A DNA stretch of 64,000 nucleotides from a phage, in the NCBI GenBank assembly GCA_022901335.1, contig GCA_022901335.1_3641.1. The stretch is one strand, 5' to 3'. Positions 1,962 to 60,715 of this stretch are shown piece by piece. A program made the position numbers and the translations under genes. Under the pieces are notes generated by a model. The model was given only the letters and a program-made list of their open reading frames with translations, was not told the DNA's origin and made no database searches. The first letter of the stretch is position 1; every line of letters begins with the position of its first letter.

Positions 1962-4559
1962 ATGCGTATTCAACACAACATTGATAACGTATTTCAGATG
2001 ATTGAGGGGCACAGGAAGTGCCTCGATAACAACACAGGTATTACCAACACACCTACACAAAATAAGCTAGTAAACCCTGATGGTCTTATAGCTGCAGGGT
2101 GGGCAGGTAATAAGATAAATAACGATTGGGCAATGCATGAGTCCCAAGCTGTGTTGATTCTGGGATACATTGAAGCATACAGGGCATCGAAAAGCGATTT
2201 CTATCTGGATAGGGCAAAAGATGCTTGGGAAGCTTACAATAGTCATCTTCTGGGTGCATATGCAGTAGAAAGTAAAATGCAAAGATTGTCCCACTACCCT
2301 CTATCCACAGATGGGGTTCCATCACATGGTGGGTTTAAAGATGTGGTGGTGTCTTTTACCAATGGTAGAGGAAAAATCCCAGCTGGATCTCCGACATGGG
2401 GGGAATACCTGGACAAGGCATTCCAAGCGTATAACGGCGTGTTAGGAAGAAACACTGTAGACTCTGATGTTTACGGTGGCACAGATGCTAACCCAGATTG
2501 GACAACATCCGGATTAAGTTGGTGGGTTGAGTGGTATATAGCATGGGATGGTAACCGCTATTGGGCTAACGGTAGCATAGCCGACAGTGGTCATACGTCT
2601 GTAGAGTTCGGCACAATCCAATTACAAGATAAGGGTGTTACAGGAAGCCACAAGGTAACCTATTGTGTTAGATTACCTCAAGAGCAGGGTGGATCGGTGA
2701 TACCTGTAGGATCCCCTGTAATTGTAAATCCCATAAACGTGGTTGCAGATAATCAGGCCCCAGAGTTGGACGGGGAAGAAATGTGGTGTGACGCTTGTTA
2801 TCAACTCTACACCTTGACAGGTGAGGAAAAGTATTACACCGCGTTTGAACAGTCTTACAACAAGTTGCTTAATTTCAGTGATATAAACGCCTACGACAAA
2901 CTGTTTAGAAAGACCACGTTGATTAAGGCACCGTTTACAGATGGTACTTGTCTTGTTGCAGGAACAGTTCCTGCCATGAGCAGGGACAGTGACGGGTATA
3001 TCAATTTTAGAATGAACGCACACCTGCCTTGCGAAATAATTCAAAAAGGGACTACATACAAAATAGGCAGAGATGCTGAAATTGTTATGAATTTCGGAGG
3101 AGAAGGGGTTCTGTTCCAGCCACATTTCATCCTTAATGATGGCAACAATAACAAAAAACAGTACAGGATAGGGGTTCCTTTTGGAGGGGCAGAGGTAACA
3201 GAAATAGCTGCCAAGGTTACTGATTTCGTAGAGGTAGTTGGTAAAGACGGTAATCCGTATCTCTTACCTAAAGAGGAAAACATTGTCGTAAGCGGTGGCG
3301 CTAGTGTTAGTATGCAGTATGATACCGACATTTACAACCACTCTGACAACTTCACCCGTTGTAATATAGCAAGAGGTAAAGTAACTTTCAATTTTGGGAG
3401 AGAGATTTCTTTAAACTCAGTAACTTATCGATCAGATGATGAGATGGTAAGGGTCAAATTTCTTGACAAAGATAGGTGGTTATGGTATGCTGATCTATAT
3501 GCCACTAATGGACAATGGATAACAGAAACTCTTACTCTAGGAGATTTCAAACTAGATCCGACACAACCTCATCACACCGAAGAAGAGATTAAACCTTTCT
3601 TTGCTAATCCTAAGGGGCTCACCTCTGTAGATTTCAGCCTAAGCGACAGGCAGATAGGTAATGGCTTGTTTGATCTGTACTGCGTAAACACGCTGCCGCA
3701 GTTCTATATTGCAGATAGGGATGCTTATCTAATATGGTTTAGCGTATGGATGGCAAGCAAGACAGAATCAACCGCTAAGGTTGGTGATTGCTATGTCAGA
3801 AACTACAAGCAAGGTGCATACAGGCACACACCGGGTGTGTTCCCTGCCGGAAAGGTGATAGATAAGGAAAACTATCTCTTAGAGGAAAAGCCAAATTGGC
3901 CCTACCCTGGCATGCAATACCCAGCAATCTACTGCATGGGTGCAGAAAACATAGATCGCCATAGATTGTCAAATACAATAGGCTTTCTGTATGACGCTCA
4001 AGTCTGGTATAATAATACATTTAAGACAGAGGGTCCAGTTGCCTCACGTTATGTATGGCAGAGAGGTAATGAAGGGTTGACTGGTTGGTGGGAGATGGTA
4101 GATAACTCTAAGCTCCAGTCAAGATCTTTTGTTGCTGCGTGCCGCACAATATATGAGCTCAAGAAACATAAAGAACCTGTTGATGAAAGGCTGTTCCTGT
4201 TCTGCCAGAAATGGGCATGGTTCCTCAACAGATTCCAGTCATCTCATTCAGGAAATCTACCTACAGACTTTAACACCTCGGGGGGATATTCTTATCAGGA
4301 CAGAGGAGACAGGATGTGGGTGGTAGGTGAATGGCTTGCAGGTTGCTGCTGGCTAGGTCTGTGCGGGTATTCAGAGACAATACCTCAAATAGATATTGTT
4401 GTAGAGGCCTGTGTGAAGCTACTGCAAAAGCACCACTTCATTAATGGGGATAATGTTTTAAACGGCTGCTGGGCAGTTTCTGATCCGGTTGGCTATCACT
4501 CTGGCGAAATCCTTCGCGGTCTGGGCCTTTATGCTCAATACCGTGGATTGTACCTTTAA
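1962..4559 (+). CDS. large virion structural protein (baseplate/fibre-associated), function unknown
   Basis: 865-aa ORF in structural operon, tightly packed with neighbours; no diagnostic motif recognised. Confidence 0.45.
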   Translation: MRIQHNIDNVFQMIEGHRKCLDNNTGITNTPTQNKLVNPDGLIAAGWAGNKINNDWAMHESQAVLILGYIEAYRASKSDFYLDRAKDAWEAYNSHLLGAYAVESKMQRLSHYPLSTDGVPSHGGFKDVVVSFTNGRGKIPAGSPTWGEYLDKAFQAYNGVLGRNTVDSDVYGGTDANPDWTTSGLSWWVEWYIAWDGNRYWANGSIADSGHTSVEFGTIQLQDKGVTGSHKVTYCVRLPQEQGGSVIPVGSPVIVNPINVVADNQAPELDGEEMWCDACYQLYTLTGEEKYYTAFEQSYNKLLNFSDINAYDKLFRKTTLIKAPFTDGTCLVAGTVPAMSRDSDGYINFRMNAHLPCEIIQKGTTYKIGRDAEIVMNFGGEGVLFQPHFILNDGNNNKKQYRIGVPFGGAEVTEIAAKVTDFVEVVGKDGNPYLLPKEENIVVSGGASVSMQYDTDIYNHSDNFTRCNIARGKVTFNFGREISLNSVTYRSDDEMVRVKFLDKDRWLWYADLYATNGQWITETLTLGDFKLDPTQPHHTEEEIKPFFANPKGLTSVDFSLSDRQIGNGLFDLYCVNTLPQFYIADRDAYLIWFSVWMASKTESTAKVGDCYVRNYKQGAYRHTPGVFPAGKVIDKENYLLEEKPNWPYPGMQYPAIYCMGAENIDRHRLSNTIGFLYDAQVWYNNTFKTEGPVASRYVWQRGNEGLTGWWEMVDNSKLQSRSFVAACRTIYELKKHKEPVDERLFLFCQKWAWFLNRFQSSHSGNLPTDFNTSGGYSYQDRGDRMWVVGEWLAGCCWLGLCGYSETIPQIDIVVEACVKLLQKHHFINGDNVLNGCWAVSDPVGYHSGEILRGLGLYAQYRGLYL

Positions 4560-56937: not shown

Positions 56938-57306
56938 ATGGAACAAATGAACGATCAAGAGTCGGTTGCGATGAACGAGCAAGAACAACCTCAAGAATTT
57001 TTCTTAGGGTTAAGTAAAGATCAAGTGTCTCTTTTGCTAGTGCTTTCTTCTTTCATGGGAAGACTTCAGGAGCTCACACAACAACCGGAGGCTGAACAAT
57101 TATTTCAGGCTCTGCGTGAAGAAGAAAAATATCGTCGTTTGGACTATGCCTTAGGTTGGGTAGCTCAACAACGAGATATGTTGATGGCCCTCTCTGGGAC
57201 CACAAGTTTTGCAATGGGCCTGTTGGCTCAAGTTCAGGACAAATTAATTCAAGCAGGGTTTGCACACACGGCAAACACTAACGAAGAACAAGGAGACAAA
57301 GAATGA
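56938..57306 (+). CDS. hypothetical coiled-coil protein
   Basis: 122 aa, RBS GGAGA. Confidence 0.5.
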   Translation: MEQMNDQESVAMNEQEQPQEFFLGLSKDQVSLLLVLSSFMGRLQELTQQPEAEQLFQALREEEKYRRLDYALGWVAQQRDMLMALSGTTSFAMGLLAQVQDKLIQAGFAHTANTNEEQGDKE

Positions 57307-58529
57307 GCGTTATTCAACAATTCGCTAACCCGATGAATCCGCGTGAAACTGTTTTACTGGCTCACGGCATGATTAAACGCGTCAGCATCAAGCCTATCAA
57401 AGGTGCTGATCCTACAACAGGTATTAAAACCACTGTGTGGCAAGGTAAGAAAATTGAGTCCAGCCACACCATCTCTTTACTGATTTCTGAACTGGATTCC
57501 TCTGATAACCTACTTCAAGGTGGTGAAGAAGTTTGGATCAGTATGGGCGATAAGCTGCTTAAACCGGGTCATCAAGACTCTGTCTCTGTTAAAATTGATG
57601 ACAAGTGGGAAACCGTAACGCCAGGATGGATCGTAAATATCCCTTTGAAGGCAAACGAGCATAACGGTAAGACCTACTACAAAGGCTCACTGGCTAAGAT
57701 GGTTAAGCTGGGTGCAGGAGAGGCTCCAGCAGCGACTCAGCAGCAAAAACAGCAACAAGGTGCACAATCACAAGGCCAGAAGCAGAAACCTCAGCAGAAT
57801 GCCAATCAGGACGTTTTACGCATCTATGGTGATGTGACTCAGATTGTTGGCAACGTGGTTACTGTTAATGACCACAAGATTGGCGAAGGTGCTATGGTTG
57901 TAACTGATGAGCAGCTTAAAGACCTGGTGGTAGGTGGTCGTGTTGCAGCCATTGTTGACAAAGACACCGGAAACATTATCAGTGGTTTCAAAGCCTATCC
58001 TCCTAAGGCAGAGAACGGTACTCAAGGCTCTGGTGGCAAGCGTAAATCCTCTTACGACCCTATCGGTGTGGAAACGGGGCATAGCATCAATGCGTTGCAA
58101 ATCATCCTGGATCGCGGGTTTAAGGTAGACGACCCACTAGGAGTGGCTAAAACACTACACGTAGTCACTATTGAGCTTAAGAAAGAGTATGCTCAAGCCA
58201 CCAACCGAACTGAAGATGAAGTAGGTGCCAGTGTCGGTAATGCGGTGTTGAACGCTTGTCGCCGTATTGACAAGAAAACGAAAGTTGATGATTTTGCAGC
58301 GGCAATTACTGCAGAAGCAAAAGATGTCTTGACTAATCTGGCTGAGCCGTTGTACGATTGGATCAAGAACGGTGCTGGGTCAACTGACCATCAAGAACCT
58401 CAGGCTGCCAAACAGGAAGCAGCTCCACAGCAAAACACTGTAGACGCTCCTCCTGTAAATGATGGGGAAGATGACTCGATGGATCAGAATCCAGCACAGT
58501 ACGCCTTTGATGATGACATCCCATTCTAA
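57303..58529 (+). CDS. ssb: ssDNA-binding-like protein with E. coli SSB-type acidic C-terminal tip
   Basis: ends ...AQYAFDDDIPF (E. coli SSB ends DFDDDIPF); Gln-rich flexible linker; replication-module context. Confidence 0.55.
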   Translation: MSVIQQFANPMNPRETVLLAHGMIKRVSIKPIKGADPTTGIKTTVWQGKKIESSHTISLLISELDSSDNLLQGGEEVWISMGDKLLKPGHQDSVSVKIDDKWETVTPGWIVNIPLKANEHNGKTYYKGSLAKMVKLGAGEAPAATQQQKQQQGAQSQGQKQKPQQNANQDVLRIYGDVTQIVGNVVTVNDHKIGEGAMVVTDEQLKDLVVGGRVAAIVDKDTGNIISGFKAYPPKAENGTQGSGGKRKSSYDPIGVETGHSINALQIILDRGFKVDDPLGVAKTLHVVTIELKKEYAQATNRTEDEVGASVGNAVLNACRRIDKKTKVDDFAAAITAEAKDVLTNLAEPLYDWIKNGAGSTDHQEPQAAKQEAAPQQNTVDAPPVNDGEDDSMDQNPAQYAFDDDIPF

Positions 58530-58544
58530 CATCTAGTTAACATA

Positions 58545-58573
58545 GCCCTGCCCGAAAGGGTGGGGCATTTTTG
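58545..58573 (+). terminator. rho-independent terminator (GCCCTGCCC-GAAA-GGGTGGGGC + T-run), copy 2
   Basis: hairpin identical to 46778-46799, followed by ATTTTTG. Confidence 0.55.
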
Positions 58574-58591: not shown

Positions 58592-59008
58592 ATGACATTA
58601 GAAGATATCATTGTTAAACCTGAGAACTATGACCAATACAACCTGTCAACTCAATCTGTAGACCTTGGATGCGCCACAGTTAGTGCGTGGCTGGTTAACG
58701 GAAAAGAGCTGGACAAGTGCTTAGAAGCTCACATGTCTGTTAACAAGTTTCTGGATGAAAATACTCACTGGCTGGAAGGTGCAGGCGTATATGCTTCATG
58801 GTTGGAGAGCATGGGCTTTGACTATCAATCTGATGAAGGGTGGTGGAGCTATCTAGCTATCTGTCCAGAAACACTGCAATGCTTCATGAAATACTCTGAA
58901 GATCTTGAGTACCGAGCGGTGGTTGATAGTGCTATTGCCCGTTATAGCCGTAAACCTTTTTCCCATGACATTAAAACTGTGGAAGAATTTGTTGAAGTTT
59001 TCTGTTGA
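58592..59008 (+). CDS. hypothetical protein
   Basis: 138 aa, RBS AAGGAGA. Confidence 0.5.
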   Translation: MTLEDIIVKPENYDQYNLSTQSVDLGCATVSAWLVNGKELDKCLEAHMSVNKFLDENTHWLEGAGVYASWLESMGFDYQSDEGWWSYLAICPETLQCFMKYSEDLEYRAVVDSAIARYSRKPFSHDIKTVEEFVEVFC

Positions 59009-59104
59009 CACAGGTTGAAAGGTGTGCAATTATAACTTCATAAAACGGGAGGACGCGATGAACGAAGAAAACTGGGATGTATAACTAACAGGAGACCACT
59101 GCCC

Positions 59105-59302
59105 ATGATTTATCGAATCCGTGTAAGAGAAGATGCACCAGGCTGTTACTTTGACTGGCGTGGGTGGTGGTTTCTCCACCCAATGGATGGACTCACAGAT
59201 AGAATGCTGGATGCTGCCCTTTATACAGATACCGACATAGGATATAATCTCTATCTGAAGGACGGTATAGATAACGGTCTATTTGAAGCAATTCCTGTGT
59301 AA
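59105..59302 (+). CDS. small hypothetical protein
   Basis: 65 aa, RBS AGGAGA. Confidence 0.4.
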   Translation: MIYRIRVREDAPGCYFDWRGWWFLHPMDGLTDRMLDAALYTDTDIGYNLYLKDGIDNGLFEAIPV

Positions 59303-59367: not shown

Positions 59368-59787
59368 ATGATCTATGAAATGCCAAAATTGATCCGTGAC
59401 GATGCCCAAAACCACACCATTATTATGGGTAAACGCATGAATATCCTTTGCCGTAACGATTTCTGTGGTGTAGAATACGTTGCAGACTACTTCGGTGAGA
59501 ATGGTAAACACCCTGTTCAGTTCTTCCTTGACCATGAGGATAACATTATCTGGGAGTTTGAAACTGAAGATATCCGCAACCTCTTCATCTTCCTCGGTGT
59601 CAAGGTTAAGGCCAATTTCGCGGAAGGTGAGTGCGACGATTGTGGATTTTATGAGGTGACAGACTTCTATCTCCCGAGTGGCAAGAACCTTTACTGTGAG
59701 AGTCACTTCGGAAACACCAACATGCCTCAAAGCTGGGAAGAATTTTTCAGTATCGTAGAAGAGGAGCTGGCATACCGTGATTATTGA
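59368..59787 (+). CDS. hypothetical Cys-containing protein coupled to macro-domain gene
   Basis: 139 aa; 3' end overlaps next gene by 11 nt. Confidence 0.5.
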   Translation: MIYEMPKLIRDDAQNHTIIMGKRMNILCRNDFCGVEYVADYFGENGKHPVQFFLDHEDNIIWEFETEDIRNLFIFLGVKVKANFAEGECDDCGFYEVTDFYLPSGKNLYCESHFGNTNMPQSWEEFFSIVEEELAYRDY

Positions 59788-60235
59788 TACTGTAAAGGGA
59801 GATTTAATCTCCCTTTTTAAGAGCGGTGCTGGTCACCTAATCCACGGTTGTAACTGCTTCCACACAATGGGTAAGGGCATAGCAAAACAGATTGCCCGTG
59901 AGTTTCCTCAAGCATTGTCAGCCGACAAAGAGACCAGACACGGTTGCCTAAGTAAACTGGGTGCGTTCTCCCGATGGGAGCACTTATCTCCGAGAGGTAT
60001 TGTCTACGGAATCAATCTGTATACTCAGTTCTACCCAGGGCCTAATGCTGAATATTTCTCAATCCTGAAAGGCTTTGAGCTAGTCAATGAGGTATTCGAG
60101 GGATCGACTTTACCATTCTACATCCCTAAGATAGGGTGCGGCATAGGCGGTTTGAAGTGGGAGCACGTAGAGGACGTTATTAACCTCGCCACTTTTGATA
60201 TAGATATTATCGTGGTGGAGTACAAAGAGTGTTGA
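59777..60235 (+). CDS. macro-domain protein (ADP-ribose binding/processing fold)
   Basis: GTG start; GDL...LIHGCNCFHTMGKGIAKQI and IPKIGCGIGGL align with macro-domain motifs. Confidence 0.6.
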   Translation: MIIDTVKGDLISLFKSGAGHLIHGCNCFHTMGKGIAKQIAREFPQALSADKETRHGCLSKLGAFSRWEHLSPRGIVYGINLYTQFYPGPNAEYFSILKGFELVNEVFEGSTLPFYIPKIGCGIGGLKWEHVEDVINLATFDIDIIVVEYKEC

Positions 60236-60260
60236 CAGCTGACTTTTGAGATGGTATAGT
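60232..60260 (+). promoter_or_regulatory. sigma70-like promoter TTGACA-N17-TATAGT
   Basis: consensus -35 and near-consensus -10 upstream of 60292. Confidence 0.55.
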
Positions 60261-60291
60261 CACCACAACGATTGAGAGAGGGAGCACCACT

Positions 60292-60492
60292 ATGGAGACT
60301 AAAATCTTAATTCTGGCTGTGATAGATACGACCGAAGGGGCCGTGTTCGAATCTGCAGGAGGGTATTTCTACCTGCCCTACGGAAAAATAACTTCCGAAC
60401 CGAGTAAAGATTCAATCCTTAAAGTGTTCCCTTGTGCTTTCTGGCTGGAGATTCTGGTAGAAGATTGCAGAGGATTGGGGAGAGAATTATGA
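60292..60492 (+). CDS. small hypothetical protein
   Basis: 66 aa, RBS GAGAGGGAG. Confidence 0.4.
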   Translation: METKILILAVIDTTEGAVFESAGGYFYLPYGKITSEPSKDSILKVFPCAFWLEILVEDCRGLGREL

Positions 60493-60683
60493 GAAACAAG
60501 AAAGAGCTTTACTCTGGCGAGTGGATCAACGATCAACAGGTCGGAGAGGTAACCTGCTTCAGGTGTTTTACTCGGTACAATCTTAAAACTGCACCAAAAA
60601 GTGTTCCAAAGACTGACGGTTATTACATAAAAGAACCTCATTGCCCAAAATGTAAATGCCGATTGTACTGGAGCAATCTATAA
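60489..60683 (+). CDS. small zinc-ribbon protein
   Basis: ATGA overlap start; CFRC...CPKC Cys pairs. Confidence 0.4.
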   Translation: MRNKKELYSGEWINDQQVGEVTCFRCFTRYNLKTAPKSVPKTDGYYIKEPHCPKCKCRLYWSNL

Positions 60684-60687
60684 GAGG

Positions 60688-60715
60688 TTGACATCTGAAA
60701 ACTGCAGTGTATAGT
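60688..60715 (+). promoter_or_regulatory. sigma70-like promoter TTGACA-N16-TATAGT
   Basis: consensus -35, 16-bp spacer, upstream of 60747. Confidence 0.5.

What the first reader, a model, noticed from the sequence alone, without database searches (positions are those of the whole stretch)
59368..60235. Macro-domain protein translationally coupled to an unknown partner: candidate counter to ADP-ribosylation-based immunity
ORF 59777..60235 carries macro-domain motifs (LIHGCNCFHTMGKGIA; IPKIGCGIGGL). Macro domains bind or hydrolyse ADP-ribose adducts; bacterial DarG antitoxins use one to reverse DarT DNA ADP-ribosylation. It overlaps the 3' end of an uncharacterised 139-aa Cys-containing ORF by 11 nt in the early region. 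A phage macro enzyme could reverse host ADP-ribosylation or degrade ADP-ribose-derived signals; this is a hypothesis only.
Basis: partly seen in the sequence, partly recalled or inferred. Interest (0 to 1): 0.65.

Follow-up and report, generated by a model that had tools for sequence, protein, structure and literature searches.

The report
Phage AdfM-like anti-DarT macrodomain gene
This rV5-like coliphage carries a small macrodomain enzyme 40% identical to phage T4's Tk.4/AdfM, which protects T4 from the DarTG2 DNA-ADP-ribosylating defence, so it is most likely an ordinary member of a known anti-defence family; the overlapping upstream gene is not a conserved partner.

Summary
ORF A (59368-59787, 139 aa) and ORF B (59777-60235, 152 aa, GTG start) exist and overlap by 11 nt, and ORF B is a macrodomain (Pfam above threshold; AF2 pLDDT 95; best structural matches TARG1, Poa1p, DarG, SCO6735). 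The window is a Vequintavirus, 99.3% identical to BASEL phage Bas57, where the genes are bas57_0088/0089.

ORF B belongs to a family found in about 2,800 phage records. It is 40% identical over its full length to T4 Tk.4. A 2025 preprint named Tk.4 AdfM because deleting it makes T4 sensitive to DarTG2. The family has an invariant Gln (Q84, motif NLYTQ) where DarG and TARG1 have their catalytic Lys. SCO6735 has the same substitution; it cleaves thymidine-linked ADP-ribose from DNA and needs that Gln.

The anti-DarT idea is therefore supported by homology, but it is already known for this family. The "coupled partner" idea is not supported:
- About a third of neighbouring genes in this window overlap.
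- In Krischvirus phages the ORF A homologue lies beside dam, 8 kb from the macro gene.
- T4 has no ORF A.
- ORF A has no recognisable fold or family.

Verdict: a new member of a known kind, of low interest.

The parts
59777..60235 (+). ORF B: 152-aa stand-alone macrodomain protein (GTG start), the Vequintavirus homologue of T4 Tk.4/AdfM (bas57_0089 in the closest BASEL phage)
   Evidence: macro fold and family; 40% identity, E 8e-42, to T4 ORF 60.5 = tk.4; same CDS in Bas57
59843..59884 (+). Codons for H23-G-C-N26-C-F-H-T-M-G-K-G-I-A36: the first ADP-ribose-binding loop. N26 aligns with DarG N22 and SCO6735 N27; H23 aligns with Poa1p H23
   Evidence: Invariant H23 G24 N26 C27 G34 A36 in the 37-sequence family alignment; alignments to 5m3i, 6lfu and 5e3b
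60014..60028 (+). Codons for N80-L-Y-T-Q84. The invariant Gln occupies the position of the catalytic Lys of DarG (K80) and TARG1 (K84) and equals SCO6735 Gln85
   Evidence: N80 and Q84 invariant; profile alignments to 5e3b/2fg1 (..NMIGQH..) and 5m3i (..NFPTKK..); SCO6735 Q85A is inactive (PMC9411070)
60125..60151 (+). Codons for P117-K-I-G-C-G-I-G-G125: the second glycine-rich, diphosphate-binding loop of the macro fold
   Evidence: P117, I119, G120, G122 and G125 are invariant or nearly so; aligned to the IGCGLAGG loop of SCO6735/BT1257
59368..59787 (+). ORF A: 139-aa protein of unknown function (phrog_8157; bas57_0088). A real gene, but not a conserved partner of the macro gene
   Evidence: small family limited to Vequintavirinae and Krischvirus; not linked to the macro gene outside Vequintavirinae
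59611..59766 (+). Conserved C-terminal module of ORF A (residues 82-133: ECDDCG-Y-V-D-LPSG-Y-E-HFGN-N-P-W-EFF), the only part shared with the more distant relatives
   Evidence: invariant G87 D90 C92 G93 Y95 V97 D99 P103 G105 Y109 E111 H113 F114 G115 N118 F126. This part of the AF2 model has pLDDT about 86-92
59777..59787 (+). 11-nt overlap between the end of ORF A and the start of ORF B
   Evidence: the junction sequence is identical in phage Pr121LW although the flanks differ
59761..59766 (+). GAGGAG Shine-Dalgarno-like element inside ORF A, 10 nt upstream of the GTG start of ORF B
   Evidence: Read directly from the sequence; conserved in Pr121LW
59220..59248 (+). Nearest upstream sigma-70-like promoter match (TTTATA-17-TATAAT, 10/12); a possible start of the ORF A-ORF B transcript. 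No terminator-like site lies between A and B
   Evidence: consensus scan only, not evidence of function
60232..60260 (+). Near-consensus promoter-like site (TTGACA-17-TATAGT with TG, 11/12) overlapping the ORF B stop codon; it marks the start of the next transcription unit

Best explanation
ORF B is an orphan, DarG-like ADP-ribosyl glycohydrolase, a Gln-type member of the ALC1-like/TARG1-DarG-SCO6735 macrodomain class. It is the Vequintavirus counterpart of T4 Tk.4/AdfM.

Proposed mechanism: the gene is expressed from the early or middle small-gene cluster downstream of the replication genes. The protein binds ADP-ribose attached to thymidine in single-stranded phage DNA by a host DarT2 toxin. 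N26 and the two glycine-rich loops hold the ADP-ribose, and Q84 positions the distal ribose. The enzyme hydrolyses the base-ribose bond and restores replicable DNA, so the phage escapes DarTG2-type abortive defence.

ORF A is a separate small protein of unknown function. It is co-transcribed with ORF B and probably translationally coupled to it only because genes are tightly packed in this lineage.

Shown here: the fold, the subfamily, the active-site residues, the homology to T4 AdfM, and the lack of conserved A-B linkage. Inferred: the substrate and the anti-DarTG2 role in this phage.
For: - Fold and class: Pfam Macro above threshold. AF2 pLDDT 95.3. Top Foldseek PDB matches are TARG1, Poa1p, Taq/Mtb DarG, BT1257 and SCO6735. 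The family profile matches BT1257 at 2e-18, SCO6735 at 1.3e-17 and Mtb DarG at 5e-17. The PADLOC DarG model matches at 3.3e-14 over its macro part.
- Active site: N26 and Q84 are invariant in 37 diverse homologues. Q84 aligns with SCO6735 Gln85. SCO6735 removes DarT-made thymidine-ADP-ribose from DNA, rescues E. coli from DarT, and is dead as Q85A (PMC9411070).
- Direct genetic evidence in a homologue: T4 ORF 60.5, which is tk.4 by its position between vs and tk, is 40% identical over 150 of 152 residues, E 8e-42, with the same NLYTQ motif and the same PHROG. The tk.4 knockout sensitises T4 to DarTG2, and the gene was named adfM.
- A second, Lys-type phage macrodomain (PhiKZ gp104 AdfM) removes DarT2 ADP-ribose from DNA (PMC13309987).
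- Accessory-gene behaviour: the family is in 2,812 phage records across many lytic lineages. Deleted or truncated variants occur in otherwise intact contigs of about 135 kb (P0017, P0020, P0038, P0062).
Against: - No experiment exists for any Vequintavirus macro gene. The HIDEN-SEQ DarTG2 screen used only T4, and the Bas54 screens did not flag this gene.
- 40% identity does not guarantee the same substrate. Enzymes of this class also act on uracil-ADP-ribose in RNA and on protein-linked ADP-ribose.
- Poa1p, a phosphatase for ADP-ribose-1''-phosphate, shares the IHxCNC motif.
- The phage proteins lack SCO6735 K89 and its longer mobile loop, which that study linked to high activity on DNA.
- The T4 result is a preprint, with genetics only and no biochemistry.
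Confidence: 0.7

Rival explanations
1. ORF B reverses a different ADP-ribosylation from DarT2's thymidine-DNA mark. Candidates are uracil- or phosphate-linked ADP-ribose on RNA, or protein ADP-ribosylation, placed by another host toxin or defence ART. It could also act broadly on several of these.
For: TARG1, DarG and SCO6735 all hydrolyse uracil-ADP-ribose on ssRNA, and SCO6735 does so efficiently (PMC13036486). SCO6735 also removes protein-linked ADP-ribose from PARP1 E988Q. The family is extremely widespread in phages (2,812 records), which could reflect a target broader than DarTG2.
Against: The only in vivo phenotype known for a close homologue is specific: tk.4 was the single significant hit in the DarTG2 screen. 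No bacterial defence that ADP-ribosylates uracil in RNA is cited in the papers read here. The CmdT adenine modification is described there as irreversible.
Confidence: 0.15
2. ORF B is a metabolite-processing enzyme: an ADP-ribose-1''-phosphate phosphatase or O-acetyl-ADP-ribose deacetylase (Poa1p-like), as the database labels 'phosphatase' and 'O-acetyl-ADP-ribose deacetylase' suggest. It would not be an anti-defence factor.
For: phrog_335 is labelled 'phosphatase'. Some GenBank and JGI records say O-acetyl-ADP-ribose deacetylase. Poa1p matches the family profile at 1.2e-15 and shares H23 in the IHxCNC motif, with Ser30 aligned to Thr30; H23A and S30A mutant structures of Poa1p exist.
Against: These labels are inherited generic macro-domain annotations, not tests. 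Poa1p has Ser where this family has the invariant Gln84 (..CLFTS.. against ..NLYTQ..). BT1257 and SCO6735 score better than Poa1p. T4 Tk.4, in the same PHROG, has a defence-specific phenotype. No tRNA-splicing 2'-phosphotransferase context was seen in the 51 ORFs surveyed.
Confidence: 0.08
3. ORF A and ORF B form an obligate two-protein anti-defence module. In this reading ORF A supplies a toxin-binding or DNA-targeting function analogous to the C-terminal DarT-binding domain of DarG, and translational coupling sets the stoichiometry.
For: There is an 11-nt overlap with a conserved junction and no terminator between the genes. ORF A homologues occur in 177 phage records and macro homologues of at least 60% identity in 178, and one Krischvirus genome (FL20) carries one copy of each. 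Johannesman et al. suggest that T4 AdfN needs an unidentified phage co-factor, so helper proteins for orphan antitoxins are conceivable.
Against: Adjacency is confined to Vequintavirinae. In Krischvirus the ORF A homologue overlaps dam and lies 8.2 kb from the macro gene. T4 and about 2,600 other phage records have the macro gene without ORF A. The two genes have very different divergence between the two lineages, 70% for the macro against 39% for ORF A, so they did not travel together. Overlaps are common here, 21 of 62 pairs. The co-occurrence amounts to only two independent lineages. ORF A shows no similarity to DarG, AdfA or Vs and has no fold match.
Confidence: 0.07

Closest known systems
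T4 Tk.4 = AdfM (anti-DarT factor macrodomain; HIDEN-SEQ preprint, bioRxiv 10.1101/2025.11.20.689424)
   Same: Stand-alone macrodomain of about 150 aa. 40% identical over the full length (E 8e-42). Same PHROG 335. Same HGCNC, NLYTQ and IGxGIG motifs. Encoded among small early or middle genes of a large lytic coliphage with no toxin gene nearby.
   Different: The upstream neighbour differs: vs in T4, ORF A here, and the two are unrelated. The anti-DarTG2 phenotype has been shown only for T4. This protein has a GTG start and an 11-nt overlap, against a 4-nt overlap in T4.
Streptomyces coelicolor SCO6735 (PDB 5e3b) and Bacteroides BT1257 (2fg1/2afc)
   Same: Best profile matches in the PDB, 1e-17 to 2e-18. 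Gln at the catalytic position (SCO6735 Gln85 = Q84 here), with Asn27 = N26. SCO6735 cleaves thymidine-linked ADP-ribose from DNA and neutralises DarT.
   Different: These are cellular rather than phage proteins. Pairwise identity is only about 22-24%. SCO6735 has a longer mobile loop and K89, which this phage protein lacks, while K34 aligns with K33 here. SCO6735 is under a DNA-damage-type promoter.
DarG2 antitoxin of DarTG2 (Thermus aquaticus 5m31/5m3e, M. tuberculosis 5m3i)
   Same: Same macrodomain class and fold. The PADLOC DarG model matches at 3.3e-14. N22 is conserved as N26. It probably acts on the same chemical bond.
   Different: The catalytic Lys80 is replaced by Gln. There is no C-terminal DarT-binding domain (152 aa against about 330-340; only positions 3-141 of the model are matched). 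NCBIfam antitoxin_DarG scores 48.5 bits against a cut-off of 250. No darT gene lies next to it.
Chimallivirus AdfM (PhiKZ gp104; Cell Rep 2026, PMC13309987)
   Same: A phage-encoded orphan macrodomain that counters DarTG2 by removing ADP-ribose from DNA. It falls in the same PHROG 335.
   Different: Only 20% identity (E 7e-5). It is Lys-type (..MMFPTKDNW..) like DarG, not Gln-type. It is imported into the phage nucleus, which rV5-like phages are not known to form. So the name AdfM now covers two distinct macro lineages.
AdfN (NADAR orphan antitoxins; T4 gp30.3, Bas32, Bas60-62; PMC11825919)
   Same: The same strategy: a phage keeps only the enzymatic 'eraser' half of a DarTG system. Some Vequintavirinae (Bas60-62) carry one.
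   Different: An unrelated fold (NADAR). It is specific for guanine-ADP-ribose made by DarT1 and inactive against DarTG2. No NADAR was found among the 51 ORFs surveyed in this window.
Yeast Poa1p (6lfq-6lfu) and human TARG1 (4j5r)
   Same: Same ALC1-like class; among the top structural matches (TM 0.7-0.8). Poa1p shares the IHxCNC motif.
   Different: Poa1p has Ser and TARG1 has Lys84 (with Asp125) at the position of Q84. They are eukaryotic enzymes with metabolite or protein/DNA-repair roles.

Membership tests
Macro domain (Pfam PF01661) | Sequence match above the curated gathering score | tested here: met
   28.5 bits against a cut-off of 22, although only residues 22-53 are aligned. The full-length match comes from the family profile against PDB macrodomains.
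Macro domain (Pfam PF01661) | Three-layer alpha/beta/alpha macro fold with two glycine-rich ADP-ribose-binding loops | tested here: met
   AF2 pLDDT 95.3, pTM 0.89. Foldseek probability 1.00 and TM 0.7-0.8 to TARG1, DarG and Poa1p. The loops MGKGIA and IGCGIGG are conserved.
ALC1-like class, SCO6735/BT1257 (Gln-type) branch | Gln at the position of the TARG1 K84 / DarG K80 catalytic Lys; closest to SCO6735 and BT1257 | tested here: met
   Q84 is invariant in 37 homologues. It aligns to SCO6735 Gln85 and to the BT1257 Gln. These two are the best PDB profile matches.
ALC1-like class, SCO6735/BT1257 (Gln-type) branch | Hydrolysis of thymidine-linked ADP-ribose on ssDNA | not testable with these tools
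   A biochemical property, shown for SCO6735 but not for any phage member of the Gln-type branch.
AdfM of T4 (Tk.4) | Full-length homology to Tk.4 with conserved active-site motifs | tested here: met
   40% identity, 64% positives, 150 of 152 residues, E 8e-42. Both fall in phrog_335 at 1e-60 to 1e-65.
AdfM of T4 (Tk.4) | Orphan gene: no cognate darT toxin gene in the neighbourhood | tested here: met
   The neighbours are small hypothetical genes, an SSB-tail protein and replication genes. No ART or DarT family appears among the 51 ORFs surveyed.
AdfM of T4 (Tk.4) | Required for plaque formation on DarTG2-expressing hosts | not testable with these tools
   Shown only for T4. No Vequintavirinae data were found.
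DarG antitoxin (type II/IV TA, NCBIfam NF048014) | Equivalog-level match including the C-terminal DarT-binding domain | tested here: not met
   48.5 bits against a cut-off of 250. Only model positions 2-143 of 338 are matched, and PADLOC positions 3-141 of 329.
DarG antitoxin (type II/IV TA, NCBIfam NF048014) | Catalytic Lys (K80 in T. aquaticus and M. tuberculosis DarG) | tested here: not met
   Replaced by Gln84: INLYTQ against INFPTK.
DarG antitoxin (type II/IV TA, NCBIfam NF048014) | Adjacent darT toxin gene | tested here: not met
   No such gene lies beside ORF B.
Poa1p-like ADP-ribose-1''-phosphate phosphatase | Closest similarity to Poa1p and phosphatase activity | tested here: inconclusive
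   Poa1p is a clear homologue (1.2e-15) and shares H23, but it ranks below BT1257, SCO6735 and DarG and has Ser at the Q84 position. The activity itself is not testable here.
Conserved two-gene module (ORF A + macro) | Adjacency conserved across independent phage lineages | tested here: not met
   The genes are adjacent only in Vequintavirinae. They are 8.2 kb apart in Krischvirus FL20. There is no ORF A within 3 kb of the macro gene at the T4 and phage Whisky loci, and no macro gene within 3 kb of ORF A in three Krischvirus loci.

The most novel reading that the evidence does not exclude
ORF A (phrog_8157) might be a previously unrecognised accessory or independent anti-defence protein. It could help the orphan AdfM-type macrodomain, for example by binding DarT2 or targeting the enzyme to ssDNA, so replacing the missing C-terminal domain of DarG. 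Its genome-level co-occurrence with the Vequintavirus-type macro sub-clade (177 against 178 phage records, in two unrelated phage lineages) would then reflect a functional link despite the lack of adjacency in Krischvirus.
Probability: 0.07. Interest if true: 0.5.

Novelty: new member of a known kind. Interest (0 to 1): 0.2.

Why it matters
If the inference holds, rV5-like phages, which are a common choice for E. coli phage therapy and biocontrol, carry a built-in eraser of DarT2 DNA ADP-ribosylation. That would help explain their host range on DarTG2-positive strains.

It also shows that the T4-type AdfM family (Gln-type, SCO6735-like chemistry) is one of the most widespread anti-defence genes in large lytic phages, at about 2,800 records. 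It is a different lineage from the Lys-type chimallivirus protein that shares the name AdfM.

None of this is a conceptual advance. The gene class, its mechanism and its role were published in 2022-2026. The practical gains are a better annotation for genes such as bas57_0089, now labelled 'hypothetical protein', and a caution against reading short gene overlaps as evidence of functional partnership.

Tried and rejected
- ORF A as a Zn-ribbon CxxC...CxxH protein: rejected. C110 is Tyr in relatives, and only C89, C92 and H113 are conserved.
- ORF A related to T4 Vs, the gene upstream of tk.4: rejected (BLASTP E 0.05 over a short patch).
- ORF A related to AdfA (T4 gp61.2), prompted by its position next to dam in Krischvirus: rejected (no BLASTP alignment; hhalign probability 0.2%).
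- ORF B as a true DarG: rejected on length, catalytic residue and NCBIfam cut-off.
- Other ADP-ribose or NAD genes nearby (NADAR, ART, Nudix, NARP): none among the 51 ORFs from 29-63 kb. The first 29 kb (structural genes) was not surveyed.
- Published tests of Vequintavirinae against DarTG2: none found.
- One homologous-protein search was left unused, because a profile search for ORF A seemed unlikely to add.
Full report
**Observation**

The window contains ORF A (59368-59787, +, ATG, 139 aa) and ORF B (59777-60235, +, GTG, 152 aa), which overlap by 11 nt. The N-terminus MIIDTVKGD matches the start of every homologue and the annotated start in the closest BASEL phage, so the start and the overlap are real.

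The window is a Vequintavirus (rV5-like coliphage). It is 99.4% identical to phage A6-1 and 99.3% identical to BASEL phage MaxTheCat (Bas57) over 2.8 kb. In Bas57 the two genes are bas57_0088 and bas57_0089, both annotated 'hypothetical protein'. Other records already call ORF B 'macro domain protein', 'phosphatase' or 'O-acetyl-ADP-ribose deacetylase'.

**ORF B is a macrodomain of the ALC1-like (TARG1/DarG/SCO6735/Poa1p) class**

- Pfam Macro scores above its gathering threshold, though only over residues 22-53.
- phrog_335 matches at 2.9e-60.
- A single-sequence search of the PDB finds M. tuberculosis DarG (5m3i, 8e-8), Poa1p, BT1257, SCO6735, T. aquaticus DarG and TARG1.
- A 37-sequence family profile matches BT1257 (2e-18), SCO6735 (1.3e-17), Mtb DarG (5e-17), Poa1p and TARG1 (about 1e-15) over the full length.
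- The AlphaFold2 model is very confident (pLDDT 95.3, pTM 0.89), and its best Foldseek PDB matches are the same proteins (TM 0.7-0.8).

**Active site**

The invariant residues in the family alignment are G8, H23, G24, N26, C27, G34, A36, N80, Q84 and G120. N26 aligns with DarG N22. Q84, in the invariant motif N-L-Y-T-Q, occupies the position of the catalytic lysine of DarG (K80..NFPTK..) and TARG1 (K84). It aligns with the Gln of BT1257 and SCO6735 (..NMIGQH..).

This at first looked like evidence against a DarG-like function, but the literature says otherwise. SCO6735 efficiently removes DarT-made thymidine-linked ADP-ribose from DNA and rescues cells from DarT, and its Q85A mutant is completely inactive (PMC9411070). 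The Gln-type site is therefore an experimentally validated chemistry for reversing DarT2-type DNA modification.

**Relation to known phage anti-DarT factors**

tblastn shows homologues of ORF B in 2,812 phage records. These include T4-like phages, Felix-O1-like phages, Ackermannviridae, PAK_P1-like phages, jumbo Vibrio phages and others. T4 itself is among them. The T4 homologue, ORF 60.5 of the old X04567 record, lies between vs (ORF 60.9) and the tk.1-tk.3/tk genes, so by gene order it is tk.4 (my reading). It is 40% identical to ORF B over 150 of 152 residues (E 8e-42) and has the same NLYTQ motif.

The HIDEN-SEQ preprint (bioRxiv 10.1101/2025.11.20.689424) reports three things about tk.4. 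It was the single significant hit when a T4 transposon library was grown on a DarTG2 host. A clean knockout sensitises T4 to DarTG2. The authors named it AdfM, anti-DarT factor macrodomain.

Independently, a Cell Reports 2026 paper gave the name AdfM to the chimallivirus macrodomain PhiKZ gp104, and showed that it removes DarT2 ADP-ribose from DNA (PMC13309987). PhiKZ gp104 is only 20% identical to ORF B and is Lys-type (..FPTK..). All three proteins fall in phrog_335. ORF B therefore belongs with the T4/Gln-type AdfM lineage.

It is not a DarG proper. It lacks the C-terminal DarT-binding domain: NCBIfam antitoxin_DarG scores 48.5 bits against a cut-off of 250, and PADLOC's DarG model is matched only at positions 3-141 of 329. 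It lacks the catalytic Lys, and it has no darT neighbour.

No publication I could find tests a Vequintavirinae macro gene. The DarTG2 screen used T4 only, and the Bas54 (Vequintavirinae) screens flagged other genes.

**ORF A and the 'coupled partner' idea**

ORF A is a real gene. Full-length homologues at 70-86% identity occur in Vequintavirus genomes, and homologues at 38-50% identity occur in Krischvirus, a T4-like genus. The family is tiny, however: only 10 representatives among 1.84 billion proteins. It is phrog_8157, of unknown function, with no Pfam, NCBIfam, PADLOC or PDB match.

Four observations argue against a functional A-B module:
- Short overlaps are routine here. 21 of 62 consecutive same-strand ORF pairs in the window overlap, two of them by 11 nt. 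In the Pr121LW annotation, 10 of 35 adjacent pairs overlap.
- In three Krischvirus genomes the ORF A homologue lies immediately upstream of the dam methyltransferase gene, sharing one nucleotide with it, and there is no macro gene within 3 kb.
- In Krischvirus FL20, scanned whole, the single ORF A homologue (39% identity) and the single macro gene (70% identity) lie 8.2 kb apart. The unequal divergence also argues that the two genes did not move together.
- The great majority of phage records with the macro family, including T4, where its function was shown, have no ORF A.

One residual signal remains. ORF A occurs in 177 phage records and macro homologues of at least 60% identity in 178. This amounts to only two independent lineages, so I give it little weight.

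**Transcription context**

A strong terminator-like hairpin follows the upstream 408-aa gene (58545-58566). Promoter-like sites lie at 59005-59033 and 59220-59248. No terminator separates A from B. A near-consensus TTGACA-17-TATAGT site overlaps the ORF B stop codon (60232-60260), with another at 60688. This fits co-transcription of A and B within a cluster of small genes driven by host-type promoters. It is consistent with early expression but does not prove it.

**Accessory-gene behaviour**

The protein database contains a 121-aa chimera, P0017. It is ORF A residues 1 to about 54 joined in frame to macro residues about 85-152 at a shared QFY microhomology. There are also truncated or frameshifted macro variants (P0020, P0038, P0062); three of these four variants come from contigs of 132-136 kb, and P0020 from a 12.9-kb contig. 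If these are not assembly errors, both genes can be lost in nature. That is what one expects of a gene that is only conditionally useful, such as a counter-defence gene.

**Mechanism and confidence**

My best explanation, at confidence 0.7, is that ORF B is an orphan ADP-ribosyl glycohydrolase. It would remove DarT2-type thymidine-linked ADP-ribose from phage ssDNA and so counter DarTG2. Rivals are:
- a different or broader ADP-ribosylated substrate, since RNA uracil-ADPr is cleaved by this enzyme class (0.15);
- a Poa1p-like metabolite phosphatase or deacetylase (0.08);
- an obligate A+B module (0.07).

Fold, subfamily, catalytic residues and homology are shown here. Substrate and biological role are inferred from homologues.

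**Verdict**

But the gene is an ordinary, widespread member of a family whose anti-DarTG2 role has already been reported, and the 'translationally coupled unknown partner' is a lineage-specific neighbour rather than a partner. I classify it as a new member of a known kind, with interest 0.2.

Noticed in passing
window 57303-58529 (+), with terminator-like hairpin at 58545-58566: A 408-aa protein (phrog_4477, unknown function) ends in ...AFDDDIPF. From my own knowledge, this matches the C-terminal acidic tip of E. coli SSB (DFDDDIPF) that recruits SSB-interacting proteins. It also has a long Gln/Pro-rich linker. This suggests a phage SSB or an SSB-tail mimic. Pfam and NCBIfam gave no hit.
   Followed up: partly
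window 60232-60260 and 60688-60715 (+): Two near-consensus sigma-70-type promoter matches share the same form, TTGACA-N16/17-TATAGT (11/12). Promoter-like sites in 57-61.5 kb are about twice the shuffled expectation (15 against 7.5). They probably form a set of host-RNAP early promoters that punctuate the small-gene cluster.
   Followed up: no
Proteins P0017, P0020, P0038, P0062 (three from ~132-136 kb contigs, P0020 from a 12.9-kb contig): P0017 is an in-frame fusion of ORF A(1-54) to the C-terminal half of the macro protein at a QFY microhomology. The other three are truncated or frameshifted macro variants. These are apparent natural losses of the AdfM-like gene in some rV5-like phages, or else assembly errors.
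   Followed up: partly
Phage records MG065635-MG065690: Sixteen unannotated records named 'Campylobacter phage' with host C. jejuni are 92-94% identical at DNA level to E. coli rV5-like phages across this region. They look like mislabelled or contaminating coliphage genomes.
   Followed up: no
L003/L004/L005 (Krischvirus FL20, JK32, Skers), locus positions about 2827-4070: In Krischvirus the ORF A homologue (143 aa) ends exactly where the DNA adenine methyltransferase gene starts (1-nt overlap), upstream of the thioredoxin and endonuclease VII genes. This is a different but equally tight neighbourhood for the same small family.
   Followed up: partly
L006 (phage Whisky) 3001-3456; FL20 60030-60482: The Krischvirus macro protein is about 70% identical to the Vequintavirus one, but only about 40-45% identical to those of T4 and other Tevenvirinae. 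This suggests fairly recent exchange of the adfM-like gene between Krischvirus and Vequintavirinae.
   Followed up: partly
Literature: The name AdfM has been given independently to two different macrodomain lineages: T4 Tk.4 (Gln-type, preprint of November 2025) and PhiKZ gp104 (Lys-type, Cell Rep 2026). They are only about 20% identical to each other's relatives. The nomenclature could confuse annotation.
   Followed up: yes
window 60432-60683 (+): A small ORF two genes downstream of the macro gene matches Pfam PF23903 'Phage zinc binding domain' (1.6e-22). It overlaps the preceding ORF 60292-60492.
   Followed up: no
window ~29-63 kb: Among the surveyed ORFs, one carries DUF2201_N (putative metallopeptidase) plus a DUF2201 VWA-like domain. 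The HIDEN-SEQ preprint reports a MoxR ATPase (bas54_0063) and bas54_0140 as anti-DS-28 genes in a related Vequintavirus. I did not check whether the VWA-like protein here belongs to that MoxR system.
   Followed up: no
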